Of a stretch of DNA of 27,461 nucleotides, positions 1 through 27,231 are shown piece after piece; position 1 is the first letter of the stretch, and every line of letters starts with the position of its first letter. Source of the stretch: Candidatus Woesearchaeota archaeon. GTDB lineage: Archaea > Nanobdellota > Nanobdellia > SCGC-AAA011-G17 > GW2011-AR17. The notes beneath the pieces are model-generated. The model ran no database searches. It saw nothing but the letters and a program-made list of their open reading frames with translations, and had not been told where the DNA came from. The position numbers were made by a program, and so were the translations under genes. The stretch is from assembly GCA_964372745.1 (NCBI GenBank), contig CAYJSK010000001.1:1-27461 (forward strand). The letters run 5' to 3'.

Positions 1-78
1 GGAGTTTTGGAACTGGTTTCCTAACTTTGCCCCATACTTGTCCATGACTTTTTGAAAACGAGGATCTATTGCTACCAT
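1..78 (-). CDS. 5' end of a gene running off the left edge; possibly a type II secretion system F (TadC-like) platform protein
   Basis: ATG at 78 with an in-frame TAA two codons upstream; open to base 1 (MVAIDPRFQKVMDKYGAKLGNQFQNS); TATATAAA-like box about 28 nt upstream on minus. The platform call rests only on a remembered resemblance of KYGxKhxxQ to DPANN platform N-termini. Confidence 0.4.
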   Translation of the reverse strand, partial: MVAIDPRFQKVMDKYGAKLGNQFQNS

Positions 79-159
79 CTTTTATGCTTTTTATAGGAAA
101 AGAAGTTTATATATCTTTAGGGAGAAAAGTTAATAAAGAAAAGGTTTATTTTTGCCTTT

Positions 160-897
160 ATGAATAGATTAGAATTCTTTGAAAATACGCCCATTTTTGC
201 TATGCTTCATTTGGCTGGAGAAGAACCTGTACGACAAGCATTAGATGAACTGACAATCTTTGAAGAAGAAGGTGTTGATGGAGTTATTGTTGAAAACTAT
301 CATGGTTCTGAAGAGGATGTTGTAAACACTCTGCTGAACATAAAAGAGAGAAGAACTTCCTTGCATGTGGGTGTGAATATTCTTCCAAATAATTATCAGA
401 AAGCACTTCACCTTGCAGATGCTTTTGCTTATCCTTTTATTCAGTTAGATTATGTTGCTGGGAGATACCTGGGAAATACAAAAGAGATATCTTTAGAACA
501 GTACCTTTCTTGTCGTGAGAATAGAAAAGACGTTCTGGTTTTAGGAGGAGTATGGCCAAAATACTATACTCCAGTAGAAGGATCAGATTTAGAAAGTGAT
601 TTACGTGAAGGGATGGAAAGAGCAGATGCTATCGTAGTTACAGGGGAAGGAACAGGTATGCAAACACCCAGCGATAGGATTTTGAAATTTAGAGAAGTGA
701 TTGGTGGTCATCCTCTTGTTATCGGTGCAGGCCTCACTCCTAGGAATGCATATGGGCAACTCATGATTGCAGATGGAGGAATTGTGGGAAGCTGCTTTAA
801 AGTAGATGAAGAGACGAGTAACCTTGTCGATAGAGGAAGAGTTCGTGCATTCATGGATGTTGTACTTGAAGTACGAAAAGAAAAAAAGGGATTATAA
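160..897 (+). CDS. BtpA/SgcQ family TIM-barrel protein
   Basis: MLHL, GVDGVIVENY, GVNILPN, ADAIVVTGEGTG, LVIGAGLT and ADGGIVGSCFK match the BtpA/SgcQ pattern. Confidence 0.85.
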   Translation: MNRLEFFENTPIFAMLHLAGEEPVRQALDELTIFEEEGVDGVIVENYHGSEEDVVNTLLNIKERRTSLHVGVNILPNNYQKALHLADAFAYPFIQLDYVAGRYLGNTKEISLEQYLSCRENRKDVLVLGGVWPKYYTPVEGSDLESDLREGMERADAIVVTGEGTGMQTPSDRILKFREVIGGHPLVIGAGLTPRNAYGQLMIADGGIVGSCFKVDEETSNLVDRGRVRAFMDVVLEVRKEKKGL

Positions 898-1446
898 CTT
901 TTTAATTTCTACAAGAAGAGTAGGATTCGTCATTTGTATATCATAATGGGATTTGTTGTGTTCTATAATTGTTTTTGCTCCGAGACTCTTTTCAAAGAGT
1001 TTTGCATCACTTAGGGGGACAAAGACATCGTCATCAGAGAATAATGCTGTAAACGTTTTACAATTTTCTTTTACTTTTTTGAAATCTATATTCTTTTCTA
1101 ACCAAGGCCGAGCTATTTCTTGTGACTCTCCACTTTCTTCATCAATAGAATCTAAGTGAAACCAGCCCGCAACAAAGAATACTGCTTGTACCTTTCGGTT
1201 TTGTGTTTGTAAATATCGCATAATTGTTTGACAGCCAATGCTATGGCCAATGAGAATTGTTTCTTCACCAGGTTTTACTTCTTTTTCTAAGGTTGCTACC
1301 CAATCTTTAATCATAGGTGTTATTGGATGGGGCATTTTTAAGGCTTTAACTTTATAGCCTAGCTTTTCTAATTCCTTTGTGAGCCAAGGAAACCAACAAT
1401 TTGTTGGAGAGCCATCCCATCCATGTACGAGGTATGCTTGTTTCAT
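892..1446 (-). CDS. RBBP9/YdeN family alpha/beta hydrolase
   Basis: HGWDGSPTNCWFPWL N-terminus, GHSIG nucleophile elbow, SDDDVFV Asp, C-terminal SHY His. Confidence 0.88.
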   Translation of the reverse strand: MKQAYLVHGWDGSPTNCWFPWLTKELEKLGYKVKALKMPHPITPMIKDWVATLEKEVKPGEETILIGHSIGCQTIMRYLQTQNRKVQAVFFVAGWFHLDSIDEESGESQEIARPWLEKNIDFKKVKENCKTFTALFSDDDVFVPLSDAKLFEKSLGAKTIIEHNKSHYDIQMTNPTLLVEIKKL

Positions 1447-1544
1447 TGTGTCTTTGTCCTTTTACAATACTCTTTTACTACTGTAGTTGCTAAGACTAAA
1501 GAAGAGTCAACAACCTTAAAATACTTTCCGGATTAAATTCTACT

Positions 1545-1667
1545 TTATACTCTTGTGGAATCATAGCCACTATTTTTTATTCCATCTTTATTGAACCATT
1601 CTTTCAAAGACTTTGCAATGACCATTGCTTTTCTTTTGTCTTTTCCAGTTGCTTGACGAATTTTCAT
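1545..1667 (-). pseudogene. 40-aa ORF resembling the N-terminus of a GNAT acetyltransferase (probably truncated)
   Basis: ATG directly abuts the SDR stop (TAA ATG); MKIRQATGKDKRKAMVIAKSLKEWFNKDGIKN resembles the GNAT beta1-alpha1 start (IRxAxxxD ... LxEWF); stops before the acetyl-CoA motif A. Confidence 0.45.
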
Positions 1668-2408
1668 TTAGCCACAGCCACCATCTACTTTAATCGTTGC
1701 CCCATTGATAAAGCTTGCATCATCTGATGCTAAAAAGAGCACAACTTTTGCTATCTCTTCTGGTTTCCCCATTCTTTTTACATAGATCTTTTCTATCTCT
1801 TCTTTGATAAAATCTTTAGGTAAATCTTTATTCATTTCTGTATCAATCCATCCTGGAGCAATGCTATTTACTTGTATATATGGTGCTAACTCTTTTGCGA
1901 GGTTTCTCGTTAGAAGGATTACTCCTGCTTTTGCAGCATCATAATCCGGACAACTTGTACTGAATGTATCAATACCATTTGTCGAAGAGATATTAATAAT
2001 TCTCCCATATTTTTGCTTTAGCATACTCTGATGAGCATACTTGCTACATAAAAAAACACCTACCAGATTTATCCCAAGAATTTTTTTCCACTCTTCGGCA
2101 CCCCTTTCAAAAAAAGGCTTGTCAACCACAAAACCTGCGTTGTTCACTAAGATATCAACTCTTCCAAACTTCTTCGAAGCCTGTTCAAACATAGACTTTA
2201 CTTGCTTTTCATCAGAAACATCACACTGTATAGCTATCGCATCAGATCCTATTTTCTTTATTGCTTCCACAACTTTCTCTGCTTCTTTTGTAGATTTAGA
2301 AGAATTTACTATTACCTTTGCCCCTTCTTGTGCAAAAAGTATTGCCGTTGCTCTTCCTATACCTCTACTTGAACCAGTTACCAAAACAACTTTATTTTTG
2401 AATTTCAT
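1668..2408 (-). CDS. SDR family NAD(P)-dependent oxidoreductase (FabG-like)
   Basis: TGSSRGIG, NNAG, NISS, YDAAK (YxxxK), VNSIAPGWIDT, VDGG; GGAGG SD overlaps the ATPase stop. Confidence 0.93.
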   Translation of the reverse strand: MKFKNKVVLVTGSSRGIGRATAILFAQEGAKVIVNSSKSTKEAEKVVEAIKKIGSDAIAIQCDVSDEKQVKSMFEQASKKFGRVDILVNNAGFVVDKPFFERGAEEWKKILGINLVGVFLCSKYAHQSMLKQKYGRIINISSTNGIDTFSTSCPDYDAAKAGVILLTRNLAKELAPYIQVNSIAPGWIDTEMNKDLPKDFIKEEIEKIYVKRMGKPEEIAKVVLFLASDDASFINGATIKVDGGCG

Positions 2409-2417
2409 TTTGTCCTC

Positions 2418-5400
2418 CTAACCCATTTGCTTCTTCCTCACTTCTCTCTTTAACCATTCTTCCCATTCAAATTTAATTCTTTTTACATCTCCAGAACCCA
2501 CTTCCGCTTGAACACTTTCCGTAATTCTATGAAACATATCATTACCTTGTAAACAAAACTCTGCTTCTAAAAGCTCAGGCATTTTCATCCTATTTGAATA
2601 CTCTACCAACATTTGTTTCAGATCCCCTCTAAGGACTATATTATCCCATATAGCATCCCAGTTCCCCACCCATTCTTTGACATTTGAAGCAATATTTTTT
2701 AAGATCTCAGATTCTCCATTCATTAATTCTGTTGTTGGTTCGAGTTTGTCAATTTTTGCATTGTAACGCATAAGATCTACAAAACCACGTTCTGCAACAG
2801 GATCTTCTTCCCATGCCTTTCGTACTTCTGTTATTTGCAAACATCTTCTCACTCTCTTCATCCCATCTGCTGATCGAATAGGATTACAAATAATAATTAT
2901 GTCTGTTGCCTTAAACGAAGTTCTTGGTACTTTCAAATCATTCGCAATTCTATCAAAAACTCCATATGGAGAGTCTGCGTGGATTGTTCCCGCAACAACA
3001 TTTGCAGAAGCACCAATACGCATTGCCTCGAAGAGTGCTAATGCCTCAGTATTATGGAGCATTATTCCACCAAAGCCACCTATAAAATTTTGACAAGGCT
3101 GCACAGAAAGATCATATACATATTCTTTCTCTGGTAACATTACTTCTTTTATTTCTTTTACTTCATCAAGATAAAAATCTCCTTGTACAAAAGCCTTTAT
3201 CCTCTCACTTGCCCATTCTGCTTCCCCTACTACCCTCTTTAAATAATCTTTCCCACATGAAGTGTATCTTCTGAGATGCCTATACTCTCTTTTAACTTTT
3301 ACATGTTCTTCTAGGATTTTGTGATCATAATCTACAGTGTTAAAGGTACTATGAGAAGTTTGTCTTTCTATGATCTCTTTAGAGTATTTCTTAAATGCCA
3401 CTTTTTCTAGGAATAACTGGATATATTTTCTTTGCTTAAAGACAACAACAAAAGACTCATGTTTTCCTATATCGGACATCGTTCCTTTCTCTAATCTTGC
3501 AATTATGCCCAAACAAAGGAGAAGATGCATAAGATCATCAGCTAAATCTTTTGAAACTGTGCTTGCAGAGATTTCATTTCCTGAAGATTTTGAGACTAAC
3601 TGACAACCATCTCCATCAAAATACCCTTTTAGAAATTCACAAATCTTTTCTTCAGATAAACCAAATACTATAGGAGGAACACGTTTTTCTGGGGCTATTC
3701 TTCCGCAAGCAAGTTTTTCTAAGAGAAGACCTAAAATTTTATTGTTTAAAACTATCTGTGTTGAAATGCCTAAGCCTTTCGTTTGCCTTACAAAGGGGTC
3801 TATACCAAATAGATTTCTAGAAAGAGAAATAATATCTTTTACAATGACAGGATTTCCATTTGAAAAAACAACTACAGAACTTTCTTTCTGAGTATATCCT
3901 TCAGAAGCATAATACCCTAGGAAACGACAGAAATCTTTTGAAATTTCTATTTCTGCTTCAATAGTTTTACTCGTTCCTTTTTTGATTTGAAAGGTTGTTG
4001 TATTATATGAATGATTTGCTTCCTTTGCTAACTCCTTAAATGTAGAAATAGGAATATTTGTATGCTGGATTCCTTTTCTTAAGTAGACGTAAATATCTGC
4101 ACTAGTATTTGCAATTTGAGAAGCTTTTTTCCAACCTATCTTAGAGATTATCTGCCTCAGATCTTCTTCATAGCCTTCTAATTTACATCCTTTATCTTCT
4201 AAAAGATCTATTATATTTAATCTATTGAGATTATTATAGCCAGAGGGTATTTTTTCTGGTATTATAATTTTGCTTCCTATTTTCAAATCTTTGCATTCAA
4301 TAGGAATTATTTGAAAATCTTTATGTGTAAAAAGACTATGGTCAGGTGTTACTGTTACTTTTCTTCCTGTCTTTGTTGTTACTTCTAATAATTTTTCTCT
4401 CTTGGGATGTTTTACAAAGGCTATAACTCTCTTTAGTTTAAACTTTAGATCTCTATCCATCGTTGGAACATACATCTCAGATATATCTCTCCCTTCTAAT
4501 TCTTGTATTGGAATCCTTTCTGTTTTTCCTTTATCCACAATGAAAACTTTTTCTGTACCACGAATAGAACTTCGAACTTCACCGACGATAAGTGCTGAAT
4601 CTCCCAACCGTAAGGAAGTTCTAATTCCTTCATCTGCTGGAACTTCAGAACCACTCTTTGATAATGCACCCCTCACTTTTAATGGTTGAATATTATAGCC
4701 TAATTTTCTCATTGCATCAACTGGAAGTTCTAGAGTGTTATGTGCAACAATATTATTCACAATAAAACTTTCATTTTCTGGAACAGAAATATCATACACA
4801 TATTTTTCATCTTTGGATACTATTTTGATCTCTTTTATCTTATCCCAATAAAGATCAGAAAAAGCAAGAGTCTCTAATTGTTCAGATAGTTCTACACAAG
4901 AAAAGATTTCTTTATTGATCGAGAATAACTTTTCTCTTCCACTATTATTCCCTCTGGGGATATAATTCCAAGAATTAAAATTTTTAGAAAGCTGAGCAAT
5001 TTTCCTTTTAAATGCTGTGGATAAAGGAATAATACCAGAACTCCCCTGTGTTGATTGTTTATTACAAAGTTTTTCTAAAAGGGATGATTTGTAGAACTGT
5101 AACACTCCTATATTTTGTTTAAACTCTCTTAAAGATTTGAGACTAGAAACTCTGCAAGGATAACATTTATCTGAATCTCTGTATTTTCCAATTCTAAAAA
5201 TAACCCCATAATAAAGAAGAAGAGTCTGTATATCTTTTAAGAACTGTTTTGAACAGAGACTTATTACAATTTCTTTTTCTGTAACACAAGCATCGCTAGA
5301 GAATATCCCTTTTAAAACAAAAGCTATTTGTTGCTTGGAAAGTCCAAATATCCAAGAAGGGATTCTTTTTGTGTATGCATCACCCTTCAATTCTAATATC

Positions 5401-7769
5401 TCCCTTAATAGGAATTTTAGTGTTCCTGAATTTATCACTAAAGTAAAGGCATCGGAATGATAATGTGTTGAAAAATCAAAACGACCAGCAATATTTTTTA
5501 CGATTCCAATTTCTTCCTTTGAACTCACAGACAGGAGTACAGAATTCTTATCATAACATCCATTTGCTAACCACAGTCCTAAGAAAGTGAGAAAAGAGTT
5601 ATCAAGAATTATCTCTATTGGCACCCATTGTGCATTTTTCCCATTTTTCCAATTTAAGCCCTTTAATTCTTTTACTGAAACACCTACAGAAACTAATTCA
5701 TAAAGAATTTTTCCAGGGATAAGACCCATACGAACCCATTTTAATATCTGGGATTTTTTGTATCCTAACTCTTCCCCTATTTGTTTTACACACTCTTGAT
5801 TTTTGCGTAGAAAAACCCGAAGGTTCTCTCCCTTAAAATATAACTCTGAGAATTTTTCTTTGTAGTCTAGAATATTCATTCTTTCTTTTAAAACATTATG
5901 ATTGGGGATTCTTCTAGGCACAGCTATAAAATCTCCTTCTTTTATTAAAGAGGGTTTAATCTCCCCTATACCCCCTTCCTCATTTAAGGAAAAAAGAGAA
6001 TGGTCCCCAGTCACTTCTATTTCTCTTCCTGTTGAAGTCTTGATGAAGTACATAGGTTTATCTACATTATGCCGAATAAACTTACTTGCTTTTGAGAAGA
6101 AAATTTTTCCCACTTTATTCATAGAAAGGACTTCAATATTGCTTCTGTTTCCTGTTACTTCATGACCAGTGAGATTATACCAAGATCCCTCTTTTTCCAG
6201 GATAGAATCTATAAGCTCAGCTATTTTTTGCTTTCTTATACTCCCTCCTTCTTTTACTAGGATTTCTGAATCACCACTCACACTATCTTCAATGGTCAAA
6301 ACCCGATATTTTCTCATAATTTCTAAGAGGAGAGCTCCCAAAAAACTCGACTTTCCTGAGCTTCTTGTCCCAGCAATCAGATGGGCTCGTGCACCTTCAA
6401 TAGTAAAACTAAGAAGACCAGCAGAAAGAGGAGTCATCATACCATTCTTGATGAAAAGAGGAAGTGTCCAAGGAGTATCTCTGTGTCGACGAAATGACAT
6501 GCCAAACCCATAAGGGTTGAGAGGTTTTCCAATGACTGATAATCGTGAACGAGATTTGGGAAGAATAATTTCTGTATCAAGAATAGGATTTGCTTCATCT
6601 AATGGGCGACCAGAAAGGAGACGAAATTTTGTTGTCCAAGATTCGAAGTCAGCAGTACTAGGAGTTATATTTGTGACACACTCTGCATGGTTTTCATGAA
6701 GAAGAAAAATAGGAACTTGGCCCATAGGAGAGTTTATCGTTAAGTCTTGTACTCTTTCATCTTCAAGAAGAAGCTCTACCACACCAAAGCCAATGGTGTG
6801 TCGTACAAGAATTTCTGCCATCTCGACAACTTCATCAGGGGTGAGAAGCATGCCTCGTTGTTCTGCAAGTTCTCGAATTAGATCTTTACTAATATTTGTA
6901 AAGGTTGTACGCATTTTTTCTGGATCGAGGAATTCTTCTGCTTGAGGTTGATGCTCTGAAATGACTTTTTTTGCAAGATCAATTAATTCAAATTTGTCTT
7001 CGGATATTTTGAATTCTGGAGGAGTTATATGGTACAGATTTTTAATTTCTGTTTGTGTTTTGTAGATTGCAACATCTGTAGAATTATTAATTTTGTATAA
7101 ATCCAATTGTTCTGCATCTAATGGTGGAGAAGTTGCAAGTTTTGCATACATAAAGTCAGGACTAATCGTTGGGCGAAATAATAATCGGTACACTTCTCTA
7201 TCTGCTTGTGTATACCCTGCAAGATATTCTTTTGACTGGAGAATAATTTTTGTTTTTTCTAATTGTGAAAGAATTTCTTCTAGAATTTGTGTGTAGAGAG
7301 CATAAGAGTTTTGTGCGTTGGGATCTTGTGTTGTCTTTTTGTTAATTGTTTCAGTCCTTAGTATTCTCTTGAGCTCAGCATAAGCTGCAAGAGGGTCTTG
7401 TTTTAGGAGATTAAATAGAAGGAATTGGATGGTGGAGAGTCTTTGTCCAAGAAGTTCTGGAGGATCTGTTGGAAGACCAATGTTTTGTAAAGAGGTTGCA
7501 CGTTTGCTCTTAAAAAAATAACTGTAAATGTTGGCAATCTCTACAAGCATTTGGGTTTGTTCATAGGTGTAGGCATATTTTCTTCTTTGGTGAAAAGTAA
7601 TACGTGCTGCTGAAGGATTTTCTACAAGCTTATCAATAGCATCCATCATGACAAGAGGGTTGTCTTCAATTGAGGGTGTGTAAGACTTGTCTTCATAGTT
7701 CATTTTAAGAACTTCTTCTCCTCCTTCTCGAATTATTTCTACTTGCTTTACCTCTTTTGTGTACACCAT
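2418..7769 (-). CDS. Type II/IV secretion system ATPase (CpaF/TadA/VirB11-like), 1783-aa precursor with two inteins; about 761 aa spliced
   Basis: Walker A GTRSSGKS; spliced junctions restore TIED|TLELP and LIVGEVRS|TEALALFEAM (Walker B); GTIHAD His box; long N-terminal extension. Confidence 0.92.
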   Translation of the reverse strand: MVYTKEVKQVEIIREGGEEVLKMNYEDKSYTPSIEDNPLVMMDAIDKLVENPSAARITFHQRRKYAYTYEQTQMLVEIANIYSYFFKSKRATSLQNIGLPTDPPELLGQRLSTIQFLLFNLLKQDPLAAYAELKRILRTETINKKTTQDPNAQNSYALYTQILEEILSQLEKTKIILQSKEYLAGYTQADREVYRLLFRPTISPDFMYAKLATSPPLDAEQLDLYKINNSTDVAIYKTQTEIKNLYHITPPEFKISEDKFELIDLAKKVISEHQPQAEEFLDPEKMRTTFTNISKDLIRELAEQRGMLLTPDEVVEMAEILVRHTIGFGVVELLLEDERVQDLTINSPMGQVPIFLLHENHAECVTNITPSTADFESWTTKFRLLSGRPLDEANPILDTEIILPKSRSRLSVIGKPLNPYGFGMSFRRHRDTPWTLPLFIKNGMMTPLSAGLLSFTIEGARAHLIAGTRSSGKSSFLGALLLEIMRKYRVLTIEDSVSGDSEILVKEGGSIRKQKIAELIDSILEKEGSWYNLTGHEVTGNRSNIEVLSMNKVGKIFFSKASKFIRHNVDKPMYFIKTSTGREIEVTGDHSLFSLNEEGGIGEIKPSLIKEGDFIAVPRRIPNHNVLKERMNILDYKEKFSELYFKGENLRVFLRKNQECVKQIGEELGYKKSQILKWVRMGLIPGKILYELVSVGVSVKELKGLNWKNGKNAQWVPIEIILDNSFLTFLGLWLANGCYDKNSVLLSVSSKEEIGIVKNIAGRFDFSTHYHSDAFTLVINSGTLKFLLREILELKGDAYTKRIPSWIFGLSKQQIAFVLKGIFSSDACVTEKEIVISLCSKQFLKDIQTLLLYYGVIFRIGKYRDSDKCYPCRVSSLKSLREFKQNIGVLQFYKSSLLEKLCNKQSTQGSSGIIPLSTAFKRKIAQLSKNFNSWNYIPRGNNSGREKLFSINKEIFSCVELSEQLETLAFSDLYWDKIKEIKIVSKDEKYVYDISVPENESFIVNNIVAHNTLELPVDAMRKLGYNIQPLKVRGALSKSGSEVPADEGIRTSLRLGDSALIVGEVRSSIRGTEKVFIVDKGKTERIPIQELEGRDISEMYVPTMDRDLKFKLKRVIAFVKHPKREKLLEVTTKTGRKVTVTPDHSLFTHKDFQIIPIECKDLKIGSKIIIPEKIPSGYNNLNRLNIIDLLEDKGCKLEGYEEDLRQIISKIGWKKASQIANTSADIYVYLRKGIQHTNIPISTFKELAKEANHSYNTTTFQIKKGTSKTIEAEIEISKDFCRFLGYYASEGYTQKESSVVVFSNGNPVIVKDIISLSRNLFGIDPFVRQTKGLGISTQIVLNNKILGLLLEKLACGRIAPEKRVPPIVFGLSEEKICEFLKGYFDGDGCQLVSKSSGNEISASTVSKDLADDLMHLLLCLGIIARLEKGTMSDIGKHESFVVVFKQRKYIQLFLEKVAFKKYSKEIIERQTSHSTFNTVDYDHKILEEHVKVKREYRHLRRYTSCGKDYLKRVVGEAEWASERIKAFVQGDFYLDEVKEIKEVMLPEKEYVYDLSVQPCQNFIGGFGGIMLHNTEALALFEAMRIGASANVVAGTIHADSPYGVFDRIANDLKVPRTSFKATDIIIICNPIRSADGMKRVRRCLQITEVRKAWEEDPVAERGFVDLMRYNAKIDKLEPTTELMNGESEILKNIASNVKEWVGNWDAIWDNIVLRGDLKQMLVEYSNRMKMPELLEAEFCLQGNDMFHRITESVQAEVGSGDVKRIKFEWEEWLKREVRKKQMG
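3051..4568 (-). mobile_element. Intein 2 (506 aa, precursor aa 1068-1573) with LAGLIDADG homing endonuclease
   Basis: Starts SIRGTEKVFI; block B TVTPDHSLF; EN motifs FLGYYASEG and FLKGYFDGDG; ends YVYDLSV...GIMLHN; +1 Thr. Confidence 0.93.
4737..6284 (-). mobile_element. Intein 1 (516 aa, precursor aa 496-1011) with probably degenerate LAGLIDADG endonuclease
   Basis: Starts SVSGDSEILV; block B EVTGDHSLF; EN motifs FLGLWLANG and LKGIFSSDA; ends YVYDISV...IVAHN; +1 Thr. Confidence 0.93.
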
Positions 7770-7861
7770 TTATGCCTCTAAGAGTTCTCAAGATTAAATA
7801 GCTTTCTTTTGTGTAGAATATAGAGCAAATATTTATTAAGACAAAAGCTTAGAAGAATAGT

Positions 7862-8290
7862 ATGGCGCAAGAGCAAATGCAAGTAGATTTTACTCAAGCA
7901 GTGAACGAACTTGCAAATAGACTGCGTATTCTTGAATCCAAACAAAGCTTGCTTTCTGAAAAACTTTTGGTTATGAATCAAAATATGATTGAAGAGTACA
8001 AAAAGGTTATGAAAGAAACAAAAGTTCTTGACATGGATATCAAAGATATGAAAAAAGATATTGCAAATGTAAAAAACATTGTGAGGCATCTTACGGAAGA
8101 AGCAGGAAAATTTGCAAAACAAAGTGACCTTAAAGTACTCGAAAAGTATATTAAGCTCTGGAGCCCTATGAACTTTGTTAGTGAAAAGAAAGTTGAGGAA
8201 ATGATTCATGCTGCATTAAAAGCACAGGAAGCAGTTCCAGTAAAGAGGCTCAAGAAAGACAATGCCGCAGACAGAGATACCAGTGAATGA
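7862..8290 (+). CDS. Coiled-coil hypothetical protein
   Basis: Heptad-rich (LANRLRILESKQSLL...; DLKVLEKYIKLWSPMNFV); TTTATTAA box about 23 nt upstream; divergent from the ATPase. Confidence 0.8.
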   Translation: MAQEQMQVDFTQAVNELANRLRILESKQSLLSEKLLVMNQNMIEEYKKVMKETKVLDMDIKDMKKDIANVKNIVRHLTEEAGKFAKQSDLKVLEKYIKLWSPMNFVSEKKVEEMIHAALKAQEAVPVKRLKKDNAADRDTSE

Positions 8291-8903
8291 TGCGCTGGCA
8301 TTATTGAATCAAGGTTTTAAGCGAGAGGAAATAACTCGAAGTTTGGAATCAAAAGGTTATAATCTTCAGCAAATCTCTGATGCTATTCATCAAGCAGAAA
8401 TAAAACAAGGAGTGAATGCAATGCCAGGACAACAAATGCAACAATCTGTAATGGATCAAGACTTAGATATCCCATTACCTGACCAAGGACCTGCACCTGA
8501 TCAACAACAAGCTCCGCAACAACAATATTCTCAATATCAACAACCACAACAGTATCAAGCTCCACCTTCGGTTAATTATGACCAGATCCAAGTATTGGTT
8601 GAACAAATTGTTGAAGAAAAGTGGAAAGAAATGATGCGAACCGTTGGAGATATTCCTGTTTTTAAAGCCCGAGTTAGTGATGATATGGAAGCAGTGAAAC
8701 AAGAGCTTCTTCGTACACAGAAAAGACTAGAAGATCTTCAAGTTGCTGTTCTTGGAAAAGTGAAAGAGTATAATGATAGTGTTCTTGGTATTGGAAATGA
8801 TATGAAGGCTCTTGAACAAGTGTTTAGTAAGATTATGGAGCCGCTTGTAAGCAATGTCAAAGAACTAAGTAAGATTACTGAAGAATTAAAGCAGAAAAAA
8901 TAA
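8262..8903 (+). CDS. Hypothetical protein: small N-terminal helical domain, Q/P-rich linker, C-terminal coiled coil
   Basis: Overlaps the upstream gene by 29 nt; QQQAPQQQYSQYQQPQQYQ linker; long amphipathic C-terminal helices. Confidence 0.8.
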   Translation: MPQTEIPVNDALALLNQGFKREEITRSLESKGYNLQQISDAIHQAEIKQGVNAMPGQQMQQSVMDQDLDIPLPDQGPAPDQQQAPQQQYSQYQQPQQYQAPPSVNYDQIQVLVEQIVEEKWKEMMRTVGDIPVFKARVSDDMEAVKQELLRTQKRLEDLQVAVLGKVKEYNDSVLGIGNDMKALEQVFSKIMEPLVSNVKELSKITEELKQKK

Positions 8904-8912
8904 TTTTCTTTT

Positions 8913-9461
8913 TTATGTTGCTGTTGCAGAAACAAAACGTATGATTAATGCAGCCATGCCCAAGAGGAAAAACATCCCTAGAACTTTTGGTGTGAAAATA
9001 ATTTGACCCACATTTTGTACAAGGTCGCCACTGCCATCAGTACTTTCTCCAGCAGTGATGTCATGTATTTGTTCTCCATATACTTGCGTAAAAGCATATC
9101 CAAAAATGCCAATACACACAACAAGAATCGCCCAGACCACCACTAGGTTAGGTTTATCACCCCCAAATACAGATGCAATAAAGTCTGCTTTGACACCCAT
9201 GAAGATAAAGATGAGGATCAAAAATAAAAGGAAAATAAGGAAAACAACAAACCAAGGCGTTGCTAAAGAAATGATTTGTGTTAGTTCTGGGACAAGAATA
9301 AATAAAATACCTATCGTAAATGCAATCACGAGATTTGCAGCTTTATTTCCAGGGAAGAATTGAACTTTTTCTAGAAGCGCCCAAAGAATAACTGTTACAA
9401 AAATGAATACGAAAAAGGGAAGGAAGTACTCAAGAATTCCTACGTCTAAAAAGGTCGCCAT
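8913..9461 (-). CDS. Multi-pass membrane protein, paralog 3 of tandem triplet
   Basis: DVGILEYFLPFFVF...LEKVQFF...KAANLVIA motif; about 5 hydrophobic helices; TAA-ATG abutment with paralog 2. Confidence 0.85.
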   Translation of the reverse strand: MATFLDVGILEYFLPFFVFIFVTVILWALLEKVQFFPGNKAANLVIAFTIGILFILVPELTQIISLATPWFVVFLIFLLFLILIFIFMGVKADFIASVFGGDKPNLVVVWAILVVCIGIFGYAFTQVYGEQIHDITAGESTDGSGDLVQNVGQIIFTPKVLGMFFLLGMAALIIRFVSATAT

Positions 9462-10031
9462 TTATTTTTTTCCTCCGATATCGTTTGGAAGATCTTTAAT
9501 AAATTTCCATAAAGAATTTTCTTTTTTATCATCAGAGTCTGAAGTAATGTACATAAAAAATGCGAAAAATATCAAAAGGCCAATAATGAAATTCCAATCT
9601 CCACTAGAGAAGTTTAACCATGAAGGGAGTTCTAAACCGAGAGCACCTGAAGAAGTTAAAAATGCGAAAATAATTGCCCCCATAGTGAGAAGAATACCTA
9701 TACCACCTAAAGCACCAGTAAAACTCGTATTTTCTTTGTTTAATAGAATCCCTAGGAGTAAGAGAGTAACTACGATAATAATAGATATGAGAGAAATCTT
9801 TGGTAAAAAAGTATTCATCACTTCAACAATGGATGCTGTTCTTACCACAAGAAAAGCCATAACTACTGCAATCACTGCATTGAAATTCTTTCCTTTCTCT
9901 CCAAAAATTTGAATTTTTTGAAGAATTGCAAAGGTAATGGTAAAAACTAATAAAAATGGGAGAGCAACTTCATAAAATCCTATATCTTCCAAACCAGACA
10001 TGAAATCTTGAAAACTGAAACTTGTTGCCAT
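9462..10031 (-). CDS. Multi-pass membrane protein, paralog 2 of tandem triplet
   Basis: DIGFYEVALPFLLVF...LQKIQIF...KNFNAVIA motif; TAATG 1-nt overlap with paralog 1. Confidence 0.85.
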   Translation of the reverse strand: MATSFSFQDFMSGLEDIGFYEVALPFLLVFTITFAILQKIQIFGEKGKNFNAVIAVVMAFLVVRTASIVEVMNTFLPKISLISIIIVVTLLLLGILLNKENTSFTGALGGIGILLTMGAIIFAFLTSSGALGLELPSWLNFSSGDWNFIIGLLIFFAFFMYITSDSDDKKENSLWKFIKDLPNDIGGKK

Positions 10032-10573
10032 TATGATTTTGTCTCCGTACCTGTGTTAAACACGAAACCCACTACTGCTGCAACGATACCCAGGAATACT
10101 GCAATAATGAATACATCCTGCCCACGACCAGTGAAATAGTCATAAATGGGTTCTAACCAACCAAAGGAATGGAAAAAGATTGCAACAATGGATATAACAA
10201 AAATTATTGCAAGAGGAGTTTTCCAACCACCAAACATTTCCATGAAATTAAATTCTTCTTTACTTGAGGAGAATGCACCTATGAGCATGAGGAAAGAAAC
10301 TATTGCTGTCAATACCAAGGCAACAATGGGAAGAGATTCTTGAAATGAAGTAATAATTTCTTTTGCAGCGAGAACGAAGAATGCTATGACAAATGCAACC
10401 ATGGCATTAATATTTTTTTTGGGAAGTTGTTTTTCTCCTTCTGTACCAAATATTTTTGTCTTTTCCAGAATACCAAAAACGATTGTAAACACCAATAAAA
10501 AGGGTAAAATGACATCGAAGAAGCCAAAATCTTGAAGCAACTCAACTGCATCACCCAAAACAGTTTCCACCAT
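10031..10573 (-). CDS. Multi-pass membrane protein, paralog 1 of tandem triplet
   Basis: DFGFFDVILPFLLVF...LEKTKIF...KNINAMVA motif; TTTATAAA box about 26-34 nt upstream. Confidence 0.85.
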   Translation of the reverse strand: MVETVLGDAVELLQDFGFFDVILPFLLVFTIVFGILEKTKIFGTEGEKQLPKKNINAMVAFVIAFFVLAAKEIITSFQESLPIVALVLTAIVSFLMLIGAFSSSKEEFNFMEMFGGWKTPLAIIFVISIVAIFFHSFGWLEPIYDYFTGRGQDVFIIAVFLGIVAAVVGFVFNTGTETKS

Positions 10574-10657: not shown

Positions 10658-10927
10658 CTAGTCCATAGATTCCTCATAATTTGGAACAGCATTTCGAGAA
10701 ATAATCATTACATCACCAACGGCTTTTACCAATTGATGAGGAACCACTACACCTCTTGCTCCACCTAAGATTTTAGATAAGTGGGAATTTTTGGTAGCTT
10801 TGATTCTCCACCCAGCAACTTTATTGCTTGTGAGAACAGCTTCTTCGACATCTCCGAAATAATCACCTGCATCGGTGAATACTTGCATATTATAAATTTC
10901 AGTTACATTTCTTGTTTTTAAGGACAT
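10658..10927 (-). CDS. Stand-alone PRC-barrel domain protein (CdpB-like candidate)
   Basis: IYNMQVFTDAGDYFGDVEE ... VVVPHQLVKAVGDVMII is the archaeal PRC-barrel pattern; GGAGG SD upstream. Confidence 0.85.
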   Translation of the reverse strand: MSLKTRNVTEIYNMQVFTDAGDYFGDVEEAVLTSNKVAGWRIKATKNSHLSKILGGARGVVVPHQLVKAVGDVMIISRNAVPNYEESMD

Positions 10928-26382: not shown

Positions 26383-27231
26383 TCATTGATCTTTAATCCA
26401 GATATTCCCTGCTTTATCAAAAGCAAGTTTTCTTTGAAACTTTGAATTTTTAATATATATTTGTGTCGTTCCAATGTCACTGTGTCCTGCATAGGACTTT
26501 ATTGCAAAAGAATCAACACCTTCATCTGCCATATGCTGTAGGCGAGAATGACGCAACATGTGCGGATGCAAGTCCCTTTGAAGAAGCTCTTTCCCATACT
26601 TCTTTAAGTTATACCACACAGACATAGACTTTAAATGAAATACAGAATCATTGGGTGTTTGGATATTTTTTTCTTTGAGATGCTCTTGCAAGAGTTTTGC
26701 TGTTGTTTCTTGGATAAAAACAGTTCTGGGTTTCTTTCCTTTTCCTAATACTTGTACCTCTTTTGTTTGCAGATCAATATCCTTCAATTTTAATGAGGTC
26801 ATTTCTGAGACTCGTGCACCTGTATCATACAAAAAGCGAACTATTAATGCATCTCTAGGATTTTTTATATTCTCCACAAGGTAAAGAAGTTCTTTTTTGC
26901 TGAGGACTGATTGTGCAAGTTTCTCATCATCTGTTAAGGCAGAATGCGTATTTCGTTTGAAAGCAATAAGATCTTTGATTTGTTTCTCTTCATAGCCTTG
27001 AAATTTCAAGTAAATCCATAAGGTGTAATTTGCTAAGGGATAGTTTCGTTCTTTCAAATAAGGACTGTGAAGTTTTTTCAGAAAAGAAAGACTGCCGCCT
27101 TTTGGAGTCTCTTCTATAAATTTTACAAGGGTAGTAATCCCATACATGGTTTTCTCCCCAAGCTTCTTACCATTCTTTTTTTCAAAGCTATGGAGATACT
27201 CTTCAAATTCTCTCAGAGAGGATTCCTTCAT
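26383..27231 (-). CDS. Tyrosine recombinase (XerA/integrase family)
   Basis: LYDTGARVSE (R), GKGKKPR (K), HMLRHS (HxxR), AGHSDIGTTQIY (H, Y); full catalytic set present. Confidence 0.93.
   Translation of the reverse strand: MKESSLREFEEYLHSFEKKNGKKLGEKTMYGITTLVKFIEETPKGGSLSFLKKLHSPYLKERNYPLANYTLWIYLKFQGYEEKQIKDLIAFKRNTHSALTDDEKLAQSVLSKKELLYLVENIKNPRDALIVRFLYDTGARVSEMTSLKLKDIDLQTKEVQVLGKGKKPRTVFIQETTAKLLQEHLKEKNIQTPNDSVFHLKSMSVWYNLKKYGKELLQRDLHPHMLRHSRLQHMADEGVDSFAIKSYAGHSDIGTTQIYIKNSKFQRKLAFDKAGNIWIKDQ

What the first reader, a model, noticed from the sequence alone, without database searches (positions are those of the whole stretch)
2418..10573. Candidate uncharacterised DPANN envelope machine: secretion ATPase, coiled-coil pair and membrane triplet
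Seen: an ATPase with a long N-terminal extension shares a 92-nt divergent promoter region with two overlapping coiled-coil genes, which converge on three coupled paralogous membrane proteins; no pilin or prepilin peptidase is recognisable in the window. Inference: these six genes may encode one motor/scaffold/membrane-ring assembly for host attachment or transfer. The linkage is positional only.
Basis: inference. Interest (0 to 1): 0.65.

Follow-up and report, generated by a model that had tools for sequence, protein, structure and literature searches.

The report
Phylum-wide pilus-like machine with new parts
The six genes belong together, but they are one half of a type-IV-pilus-like machine kept by almost every member of the tiny-celled Nanoarchaeota; its membrane platform and a pilin-like gene lie just off the window's left edge, and the coiled-coil pair and three small membrane proteins are accessory parts with no recognisable relatives.

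Summary
All six genes exist at the stated coordinates. The gap between ATPase and CC1 is 92 nt, CC1 and CC2 overlap by 29 nt, and the three membrane genes are paralogous and translationally coupled.

Two corrections:
- The 1783-aa ATPase ORF is long mainly because of two inteins (516 and 506 aa). The mature protein is 761 aa, with a real N-terminal extension of about 230 aa.
- The machine is not platform-less. A 716-aa divergent T2SSF-like platform gene follows the ATPase directly in 46-48 of 57 relatives. Here it starts at window 78-1 (minus strand) and continues on contig C71, followed by a pilin-like gene.

Linkage is strong. The full block lies upstream of the ATPase in 50 of 57 related loci. 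The ATPase extension was found in 295 of 301 genomes of the phylum and the membrane family in 79 of 81. Genomes that split the cluster break it at different points but keep neighbouring pairs.

The coiled-coil pair and the membrane triplet match no Pfam family or solved fold.

Best reading: a Nanoarchaeota-wide type-IV-filament-like system with lineage-specific accessory subunits. It is probably one of the 'CpaF/TadC/coiled-coil' loci outlined by Hamm et al. 2024. Its function, possibly host contact, is inferred only.

The scan noted the membrane-triplet/coiled-coil arrangement before, in two other genomes.

The parts
1..78 (-). First 26 codons of the 716-aa divergent T2SSF-like platform gene. 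The rest lies on contig C71:3358-5508.
   Evidence: window 1-78(-) matches aa 1-26 of the L006 platform (85% identity, E 1e-7), and C71 holds the full gene at 83% identity; the end of C71 and the start of the window align over about 95 nt with 2-3 mismatches; hhalign against a local T2SSF profile gives 95.4%, E 1.8e-8.
2418..7769 (-). Secretion-superfamily ATPase precursor (1783 aa; 761 aa after splicing).
   Evidence: Walker A reads AGTRSSGKS, Walker B reads LTIED|T, and the His box reads GTIHADSP. The best solved relative is afGspE 2OAP, at E 4e-26 for the orthologue P0002.
6285..7769 (-). N-extein (aa 1-495). It includes the lineage-specific N-terminal extension (aa 1 to about 230) and runs through Walker A to the Walker B Asp.
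   Evidence: AF2 of aa 1-235 gives pLDDT 88.6 and shows a small alpha/beta unit plus a four-helix bundle.
4737..6284 (-). Intein 1 (516 aa; Ser1, TGDH block B, HN end, Thr+1) with a degenerate LAGLIDADG domain.
   Evidence: Relatives L007, L017, L026, L047 and L085 carry an intein at the same site.
4569..4736 (-). Middle extein (56 aa).
3051..4568 (-). Intein 2 (506 aa; Ser1, TPDH, HN, Thr+1) with intact LAGLIDADG motifs.
   Evidence: Relatives L022, L025, L056 and L059 carry an intein at the same site.
2421..3050 (-). C-extein (210 aa). It holds the His box and a Trp-rich C-terminal extension.
7770..7861 (.). 92-nt divergent intergenic region with one A/T-rich TATA-like stretch facing each gene.
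   Evidence: read directly from the sequence. No promoter assay was done.
7862..8290 (+). CC1, a 142-aa soluble coiled-coil protein.
   Evidence: Alignment A5. Present in 52 of 57 loci. Stays next to the ATPase when the cluster splits.
8262..8903 (+). CC2, 213 aa: a small N-terminal helical domain, a Q/P-rich linker and a conserved C-terminal coiled coil.
   Evidence: Alignment A3. Present in 51 of 57 loci. Only generic coiled-coil hits. Weak similarity to CC1 (hhalign 47%).
8913..9461 (-). M1, a 182-aa polytopic membrane paralogue.
9462..10031 (-). M2, a 189-aa polytopic membrane paralogue.
10031..10573 (-). M3, a 180-aa polytopic membrane paralogue. The model shows about five membrane helices after an N-terminal amphipathic helix.
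   Evidence: No Pfam, PDB or fold match. Found in 79 of 81 genomes.
10658..10927 (-). PRC-barrel gene. It neighbours the M operon only in some lineages and is not a core part.
   Evidence: Within 7 kb in 33 of 57 loci, and absent upstream of M3 in 16 more distant loci. M3 has its own TATA-like stretch, and a T-run follows the PRC gene.

Best explanation
The six genes are the motor side of a conserved type-IV-filament-like (T4F) machine found across the Nanoarchaeota.

Shown:
- The ORF at 2418-7769 encodes a GspE/CpaF/FlaI-superfamily ATPase interrupted by two inteins.
- Once spliced it is a 761-aa protein with a private N-terminal module (a small alpha/beta unit plus a four-helix bundle) and a C-terminal extension.
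- In most relatives it is followed in the same operon by a roughly 716-aa polytopic protein with a remote but significant T2SSF domain, and then by a 230-330-aa protein whose N-terminus looks like a class III (prepilin) signal.
- In this genus three unrelated genes were inserted between the ATPase and the platform. The platform gene therefore starts at window 78-1 and runs onto contig C71.

Inferred:
- The hexameric ATPase docks on the platform. Using ATP, it moves pilin-like subunits, cut by the A24 peptidase on contig C21, out of the membrane into a surface structure.
- CC1 and CC2 form a cytoplasmic coiled-coil pair that binds the ATPase's N-terminal helical module.
- M1-M3 form a small hetero-oligomeric membrane complex to which CC2 is tied.
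- Together they would act as a scaffold or stator, as ArlX/ArlCDE do for the archaellum and PilMNO/GspLM do in bacteria.

What the structure does (host contact, adhesion or uptake) is not shown.
For: - ATPase family and inteins.
- Synteny: the block M3-M2-M1 / CC2-CC1 / ATPase occurs in 50 of 57 loci with at least 3.6 kb of upstream flank, at 48-77% ATPase identity. The window's own downstream genes are shared by only 1-2 of 80 loci.
- Platform: a gene of about 720 aa abuts the ATPase stop in 46-48 of 57 loci. hhalign against T2SSF gives 95.4%, E 1.8e-8. PF00482 scores above its cut-off on 577-717-aa ORFs in other lineages, including the ORF next to the ATPase in G248.
- Own-genome platform copy.
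- Pilin-like N-terminus: 16 of 30 genes after the platform against 68 of 998 background ORFs. The own copy begins MSWYNKKG followed by a hydrophobic stretch.
- Prepilin peptidase in the genome.
- Distribution: the ATPase N-extension was found in 295 of 301 genomes, almost always as a single match (this includes the unpublished G243 and G244, and is 293 of 299 without them). The M family was found in 79 of 81 genomes, usually in three copies.
- Split clusters keep pairs: ATPase+CC1 | CC2+M in G012 and G060, and in G039 (where CC2 lies about 15 kb from the M genes); ATPase+CC1+CC2 | M in G036 and G248; ATPase | CC1+CC2+M in G058.
- All parts are retained, though dispersed, in a 490,885-bp genome.
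- G029, G270 and G319 keep the A24 peptidase and this cluster, while no canonical T2SSF pair was found in them.
Against: - No physical interaction was tested and multimer modelling was not available.
- Every part is nearly universal in the phylum, so presence/absence profiles cannot tell them apart. Related genomes are not independent samples.
- The own platform copy scores only 12.5 bits on PF00482 (cut-off 25.2). Its assignment rests on one profile-profile hit over a single domain.
- The pilin call rests on a motif only. No pilin family matched.
- CC1, CC2 and M1-M3 have no known relatives in any T4F system.
- A PRC-barrel gene next to the M operon in 33 of 57 loci could point to a different cellular role.
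Confidence: 0.7

Rival explanations
1. CC1, CC2 and M1-M3 form a separate cell-envelope or cell-division module, perhaps with the PRC-barrel protein. They merely sit beside the ATPase/platform operon, and the shared gene order is inherited rather than functional.
For: - A PRC-barrel gene precedes M3 in 33 of 57 loci, and PRC-barrel proteins act in archaeal division.
- The M operon has its own promoter-like stretch.
- Universal single-copy retention fits a housekeeping role.
- The ATPase N-module gives weak matches to MIT-type helical bundles (Z about 7).
Against: - PRC and TraB are missing next to M3 in the more distant loci, while CC and M stay beside the ATPase.
- When the cluster breaks, CC1 stays with the ATPase and CC2 with the M genes, at differing breakpoints. 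That pattern links the two sides.
- The window's own genes downstream of the ATPase (SDR, serine hydrolase, BtpA) are shared by only 1-2 of 80 loci.
Confidence: 0.15
2. One reading: a self-contained new machine in which the three membrane paralogues replace the platform and no pilus-type parts take part.
For: - The window holds no T2SSF, pilin or peptidase by Pfam.
- The canonical T2SSF pairs of these genomes lie elsewhere.
- Three paralogues could match the symmetry of a hexameric ATPase; this is inference.
Against: - A T2SSF-related 716-aa gene follows the ATPase in 46-48 of 57 relatives and starts at window 78-1 here.
- A pilin-like gene follows it.
- The M profile against the T2SSF profile gives 0.7% probability.
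Confidence: 0.05
3. It is a member of an already characterised archaeal system, either the archaellum or the Epd/System-1 pilus, and the extra genes are known accessories in disguise.
For: - Databases name orthologues 'FlaI' or 'CpaF/TadA'.
- System 1 is reported as common in Nanobdellati.
Against: - The FlaI model scores 120.7 bits against a cut-off of 550. The TadA-type model scores 122.9 against 373.
- System 1 has two platform genes. This genome carries such a pair with its own ATPase on contig C70.
- CC1, CC2 and M match no ArlC/D/E/X or other family.
Confidence: 0.07

Closest known systems
DPANN 'Locus 1 / Locus 2' of Hamm et al. 2024 (PMC11291902): CpaF-like ATPase, TadC-like platform and DPANN-specific coiled-coil proteins
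   Same: - Same gene content at the level described: a CpaF-type ATPase, a platform, and one or two DPANN-specific coiled-coil proteins.
- Reported in Woesearchaeota, Pacearchaeota and Nanoarchaeota, and the coiled-coil proteins were seen in proteomes.
- Here too the CC2 profile's best PDB hits are viral fibre and phosphoprotein coiled coils.
   Different: - Identity with their loci could not be checked, because their sequence tables are not held.
- In the text available here the paper does not describe the three paralogous membrane proteins, the ATPase extensions, the inteins or the near-universal single-copy distribution.
Archaeal type IV filament systems (Makarova 2016, PMC4858521; Sivabalasarma and Albers 2026, PMC13705601)
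   Same: - Core of secretion ATPase plus T2SSF platform, with a class-III-signal protein and an A24 peptidase encoded elsewhere in the genome.
- ATPase and platform lie adjacent, as reported for Nanobdellati.
- System-specific N- and C-terminal ATPase extensions have been proposed to dock accessory proteins.
   Different: - The platform is too diverged for Pfam in this genome.
- The accessory set (CC1, CC2, M1-M3) matches no described subsystem component.
- The system occurs in about 98% of sampled genomes of one phylum.
Archaeoglobus fulgidus GspE (2OAP), Caulobacter CpaF and Sulfolobus FlaI
   Same: The ATPase core aligns with all of them: P0002 aa 237-637 against 2OAP aa 47-423 at E 4e-26, CpaF at 1e-22 and FlaI at 2e-14. 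All nucleotide-binding motifs are present.
   Different: - There is an extra N-terminal module of about 190-230 aa and a longer C-terminus.
- Scores fall far below every curated equivalog cut-off.
- The window's copy carries two inteins.
Scaffold/stator sets of related machines: ArlX or ArlCDE (archaellum), PilM-N-O (T4aP), GspL-M (T2SS)
   Same: The proposed role is the same: coiled-coil proteins that tie the ATPase to the membrane part of the machine. This is an analogy only.
   Different: - There is no sequence or fold similarity.
- CC1 and CC2 have no membrane segment.
- M1-M3 are small proteins with about five membrane helices, with no counterpart in those systems.

Membership tests
Secretion ATPase superfamily (T2SSE, PF00437; GspE/PilB/FlaI/VirB11) | Walker A, Walker B/Asp box and His box in the RecA-like C-terminal domain | tested here: met
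   AGTRSSGKS; LTIED|T-LELP rejoined after intein 1; GEVRS|T-EA rejoined after intein 2; GTIHADSP. These positions are invariant or nearly so in A1.
Secretion ATPase superfamily (T2SSE, PF00437; GspE/PilB/FlaI/VirB11) | Significant match to the family model or to solved members | tested here: met
   - Intein-free orthologues carry PF00437, and G319's copy scores 66 bits.
- P0002 against 2OAP gives E 4e-26.
- The window ORF itself is missed by PF00437 because the inteins split the domain.
Archaellum ATPase FlaI/ArlI (NF058587) | Score above the curated equivalog cut-off | tested here: not met
   120.7 bits against a cut-off of 550 for P0002; 77 bits for the window ORF.
T2SSF platform family (PF00482; GspF/PilC/TadB-C/FlaJ) | Homology of a cytoplasmic helical domain to the T2SSF domain | tested here: met
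   hhalign of 46 orthologues against a local T2SSF alignment gives probability 95.4%, E 1.8e-8, over 129 columns. The same region (aa 470-585) gives the weak Pfam hit.
T2SSF platform family (PF00482; GspF/PilC/TadB-C/FlaJ) | Pfam gathering score | tested here: inconclusive
   - The own copy scores 12.5 bits against 25.2, and 8 of 38 orthologues give E down to 0.003.
- ORFs of 577-717 aa in other lineages pass the cut-off, including the one beside the ATPase in G248.
T2SSF platform family, applied to M1-M3 | Any detectable similarity to T2SSF | tested here: not met
   hhalign of A4 against the T2SSF alignment gives probability 0.7%. There is no Pfam hit.
Type IV filament (T4F) system | ATPase and platform genes adjacent | tested here: met
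   They abut in 46-48 of 57 relatives. In this genus three genes separate them.
Type IV filament (T4F) system | Subunit with a class III (prepilin) signal peptide | tested here: inconclusive
   A [KR]G motif followed by a hydrophobic stretch occurs in 16 of 30 genes after the platform, against 6.8% of background ORFs. The own copy is shown. No pilin model matched, and no dedicated prepilin-signal predictor (FlaFind or similar) was available.
Type IV filament (T4F) system | Prepilin peptidase (A24) in the genome | tested here: met
   PF01478 scores 61.2 bits on contig C21. It is also present in G029, G270, G057 and G319.
Type IV filament (T4F) system | An assembled surface filament | not testable with these tools
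   This needs microscopy of a cultivated member.
Class 1 inteins with LAGLIDADG endonuclease | Nucleophile at position 1, TxxH block B, terminal HN, nucleophile at +1, and host length restored on removal | tested here: met
   - Intein 1: Ser496, TGDH, HN, Thr1012.
- Intein 2: Ser1068, TPDH, HN, Thr1574.
- PF14890 at 6e-51 and PF14528 at 4e-27.
- The exteins sum to 761 aa, the orthologue length.
Hamm et al. 2024 DPANN coiled-coil-protein loci | Sequence identity of CC1/CC2 with their CCP orthogroups | not testable with these tools
   Their Dataset 13 and the NAR1_03220 and NAR1_01690 sequences are not held. Only gene content could be compared.

The most novel reading that the evidence does not exclude
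This is the one pilus-like machine that every nanoarchaeon keeps, even at 0.49 Mb. Its private parts (the CC1/CC2 pair, the M1-M3 membrane complex and the ATPase N-module) would adapt a type IV filament core into the apparatus that makes or services the contact with the host cell, through attachment or the uptake of host material.
Probability: 0.25. Interest if true: 0.8.

Novelty: new variant of a known kind. Interest (0 to 1): 0.55.

Why it matters
Nanoarchaeota, including Woesearchaeota and Pacearchaeota, are abundant, mostly uncultivated, and thought to live attached to hosts. How they attach and feed is unknown.

This work defines a nearly universal, usually single-copy gene set of at least eight genes:
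- the ATPase;
- a diverged platform;
- a pilin-like protein;
- two coiled-coil proteins;
- three membrane paralogues.

The set survives in the smallest genomes of the phylum. Two complete single-contig genomes have the sizes I recall for the cultivated Nanoarchaeum equitans (490,885 bp) and Nanopusillus acidilobi (605,887 bp). If that identification holds, the system can be tested directly by proteomics, cryo-tomography and pull-downs.

The work also adds three protein families with thousands of members and no annotation to the parts list of archaeal type IV filament systems. It further shows that Pfam-based censuses will miss both this platform and intein-split ATPases.

Tried and rejected
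- **M1-M3 as a split or reduced T2SSF platform:** rejected (hhalign 0.7%).
- **Fold of M3** (AF2, pLDDT 76): Foldseek best E 2.1. VIA-wide best Z 6.7, within the noise for helical models. Scattered FliP/Q/R rows had TM about 0.2. No assignment was made.
- **Fold of the ATPase N-module** (pLDDT 88.6): best hits were the Dicer Hel2i helical insert (Z 10.1) and MIT-type bundles (Z about 7). I treated this as a common helical arrangement, not homology.
- **CC1 and CC2:** only generic coiled-coil matches in Pfam, NCBIfam and PDB. The ESM Atlas returned only unnamed archaeal clusters.
- **PRC barrel and TraB as core parts:** rejected (33 and 32 of 57 loci; absent in distant loci).
- **Archaeal secretion and membrane-remodelling predictions of Makarova 2015:** these concern different systems.
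- **Distribution outside the phylum:** not resolved. The genome search reaches only to the phylum, and every protein-search list was filled by Nanoarchaeota hits.
- **Exact identity with the Hamm et al. loci:** could not be established.
- **Unused tools:** The search of protein representatives and the metagenome scan, because their top-ranked lists would again be filled by close relatives.
Full report
**1. What is in the window**

- a 1783-aa ORF at 2418-7769(-);
- CC1 at 7862-8290(+);
- CC2 at 8262-8903(+), overlapping CC1 by 29 nt;
- M1 at 8913-9461(-), M2 at 9462-10031(-) and M3 at 10031-10573(-).

The gap between the big ORF and CC1 is 92 nt and has an A/T-rich TATA-like stretch facing each gene. 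M3 and M2 share TAATG, and M2 and M1 abut as TAAATG. CC2 and M1 converge with 9 nt between their stops. The three M proteins are paralogues: BLASTP gives E 8e-21, 8e-7 and 3e-5.

**2. The ATPase is long because of two inteins**

Pfam and NCBIfam find two intein splicing domains and two LAGLIDADG domains inside the ORF.
- Intein 1 spans aa 496-1011 and has Ser1, TGDH, a terminal HN and Thr+1.
- Intein 2 spans aa 1068-1573 and has Ser1, TPDH, a terminal HN and Thr+1.
- The three exteins are 495, 56 and 210 aa, which sum to 761 aa. That is exactly the length of the intein-free orthologues, which are up to 92% identical.
- Relatives carry one intein or none, at the same two sites.

The spliced protein belongs to the GspE/CpaF/FlaI secretion-ATPase superfamily. 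The orthologue P0002 aligns to Archaeoglobus GspE (2OAP) at E 4e-26 over aa 237-637, to CpaF at 1e-22 and to FlaI at 2e-14. It scores far below every curated equivalog, for example 120.7 bits against 550 for FlaI.

A real N-terminal extension of about 190-230 aa remains. AlphaFold2 on 75 orthologues gives a confident model (pLDDT 88.6) of a small alpha/beta unit followed by a four-helix bundle. Its structural matches are the Dicer Hel2i insert (Z 10) and MIT-like bundles (Z about 7). Both are within what helical bundles give by chance.

**3. The genes are linked in relatives**

A scan of species-representative genomes returned 80 loci, nearly all titled Woesearchaeota or Nanoarchaeota, with 48-77% ATPase identity. 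Among the 57 loci with at least 3.6 kb upstream of the ATPase:
- 50 carry the whole block M3-M2-M1 (same strand as the ATPase), then CC2-CC1 (divergent), then the ATPase;
- by gene, the counts are CC1 52, CC2 51, M1 51, M3 50 and M2 49.

The window's own downstream genes (SDR, serine hydrolase, BtpA) recur in only 1-2 of 80 loci. General gene order has therefore decayed at this distance. The PRC-barrel and TraB genes beside M3 are present in only 33 and 32 of 57 loci and are missing in the more distant ones. They are neighbours, not core parts.

**4. Distribution**

- The ATPase N-extension alone (aa 1-225) was found in 295 of 301 genomes sampled across the phylum, spanning 96 families and almost always as a single match. 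Two of these genomes, G243 and G244, are unpublished; without them the count is 293 of 299.
- The M profile was found in 79 of 81 genomes, mostly in three copies.
- In five of the smallest genomes, every family is present.
- A single-contig genome of 490,885 bp keeps the ATPase, CC1, CC2 and one M gene, all dispersed. From memory, that is the published size of Nanoarchaeum equitans.
- A genome of 605,887 bp keeps ATPase+CC1+CC2 together and the M genes 150 kb away. From memory, that is the size of Nanopusillus acidilobi.

**5. How the cluster breaks**

In genomes where the block is split, the breakpoints differ but neighbouring pairs survive:

| Arrangement | Genomes |
|---|---|
| ATPase+CC1 apart from CC2+M | G012, G060; in G039 CC2 lies about 15 kb from the M genes |
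| ATPase+CC1+CC2 apart from M | G036, G248 |
| ATPase apart from CC1+CC2+M | G058 |

This chain (ATPase-CC1, CC1-CC2, CC2-M) is the best available sign that the parts depend on each other. Presence/absence cannot discriminate, because every part is nearly universal. Related genomes are also not independent.

**6. The missing platform is not missing**

Clustering the genes downstream of the ATPase showed a roughly 720-aa polytopic membrane protein abutting the ATPase stop on the same strand in 46-48 of 57 loci.
- Pfam does not recognise it at normal thresholds. The own copy gives E 0.15, and 8 of 38 orthologues give E down to 0.003, always over the same region.
- A profile of 46 orthologues aligns to a T2SSF profile built from this phylum at 95.4% probability, E 1.8e-8.
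- PF00482 passes its cut-off on 577-717-aa ORFs in other lineages, including the ORF directly after the ATPase in G248.

In the window's genome the gene lies on contig C71, at 83% identity to the L006 copy. Its first 26 codons are window 78-1 on the minus strand. The end of C71 and the start of the window align over about 95 nt with 2-3 mismatches. In this genus BtpA, a serine hydrolase and an SDR lie between the ATPase and the platform. L006 also holds BtpA and the serine hydrolase there, but carries a GNAT gene where the window has the SDR.

The next gene on C71 (314 aa) begins MSWYNKKG followed by a hydrophobic stretch. A motif of that kind occurs in 16 of 30 genes following the platform, against 68 of 998 background ORFs. 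The genome has an A24 prepilin peptidase on contig C21.

A canonical ATPase with two ordinary T2SSF genes sits on contig C70. The window's system is therefore a second, distinct one. In G029, G270 and G319 no canonical T2SSF was found, although the peptidase and this cluster are present. Because these are metagenome-assembled genomes, absence is not proven.

**7. The accessory proteins**

- The M proteins are not T2SSF relatives (hhalign 0.7%).
- The M family has thousands of members, all 'hypothetical' and without Pfam domains. No Pfam or PDB sequence match was found.
- The AF2 model of M3 (pLDDT 76) shows an N-terminal amphipathic helix and about five membrane helices, with no convincing fold match.
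- CC1 is a coiled coil of roughly 130 aa with a conserved C-terminal 'KYINLW.P..FVT' motif.
- CC2 has a small N-terminal helical domain, a Q/P-rich linker and a conserved 110-aa coiled coil.
- CC1 and CC2 are weakly similar to each other (hhalign 47%) and match only generic coiled coils.

**8. Comparison with the literature**

- Hamm et al. 2024 reported two conserved loci in cluster-2 DPANN, including Woesearchaeota, Pacearchaeota and Nanoarchaeota. The loci encode a CpaF-type ATPase, a TadC-type platform and DPANN-specific coiled-coil proteins resembling viral attachment fibres. The authors suggested a role in host interaction. The present system fits that outline and is probably one of those loci, but the sequences needed to prove it are not held.
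[quoted passage not shown] They also propose that system-specific ATPase extensions dock accessory proteins.
- In the texts I could read, none of these papers, nor Makarova 2016, describes the membrane triplet, the chain of linkage or the near-universal single-copy distribution.

**9. Verdict**

The interpretation needs revising, however. This is a type-IV-filament-like system with a diverged platform and a pilin-like subunit, plus five accessory proteins of unknown fold families. It is not a platform-less new machine, and the ATPase's size is mostly inteins. How the accessory proteins work, and what the machine does for the cell, remain inferred.

Noticed in passing
L047:1174-3693, L057:6680-9572, L070:7894-9472: In three related loci that lack the CC/M block upstream of the ATPase, the divergent neighbours are a bacterial-type prolipoprotein diacylglyceryl transferase (Lgt, E 1e-75), an unassigned 264-aa gene and, in L047 and L057, a CN-hydrolase that could be Lnt-like. 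Lipoprotein-maturation genes of this type are unexpected in archaea.
   Followed up: partly
window 3051-4568 and 4737-6284; L007, L017, L022, L025, L026, L047, L056, L059, L085: The two intein sites, after TIED and after GEVRS, are each occupied sporadically across relatives. Only the window's copy among those examined holds both. Whole-genome hits show ORFs of about 1265-1966 aa in other genomes.
   Followed up: partly
window 1-100 and G000 contig C71 end (L104:3570-3668): Contigs C71 and C1 overlap by about 95 nt with 2-3 mismatches and then diverge. The assembly probably broke on strain variation inside the platform-BtpA intergenic region.
   Followed up: yes
window 160-2408: BtpA, a serine hydrolase and an SDR sit between the ATPase and its platform gene in this genus. 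L006 also has BtpA and the serine hydrolase, with a GNAT gene in place of the SDR. In most relatives the two genes abut.
   Followed up: yes
G029, G270, G319 (whole genomes): No canonical T2SSF gene was found in these three genomes (100%, 94% and 93% complete), yet all keep an A24 prepilin peptidase and the ATPase/CC/M cluster. The diverged system may be the only filament machine they have.
   Followed up: partly
L104:2-316 (G000 contig C71): A further small gene after the pilin-like gene encodes an N-terminal hydrophobic anchor (MSDAPTSAISPLLIIIVIFVVV...). It may be another filament or membrane subunit, but it is cut by the locus end.
   Followed up: no
window 26383-27231: A tyrosine recombinase (phage-integrase family, E 1e-31) lies near the right end of the window.
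   Followed up: no
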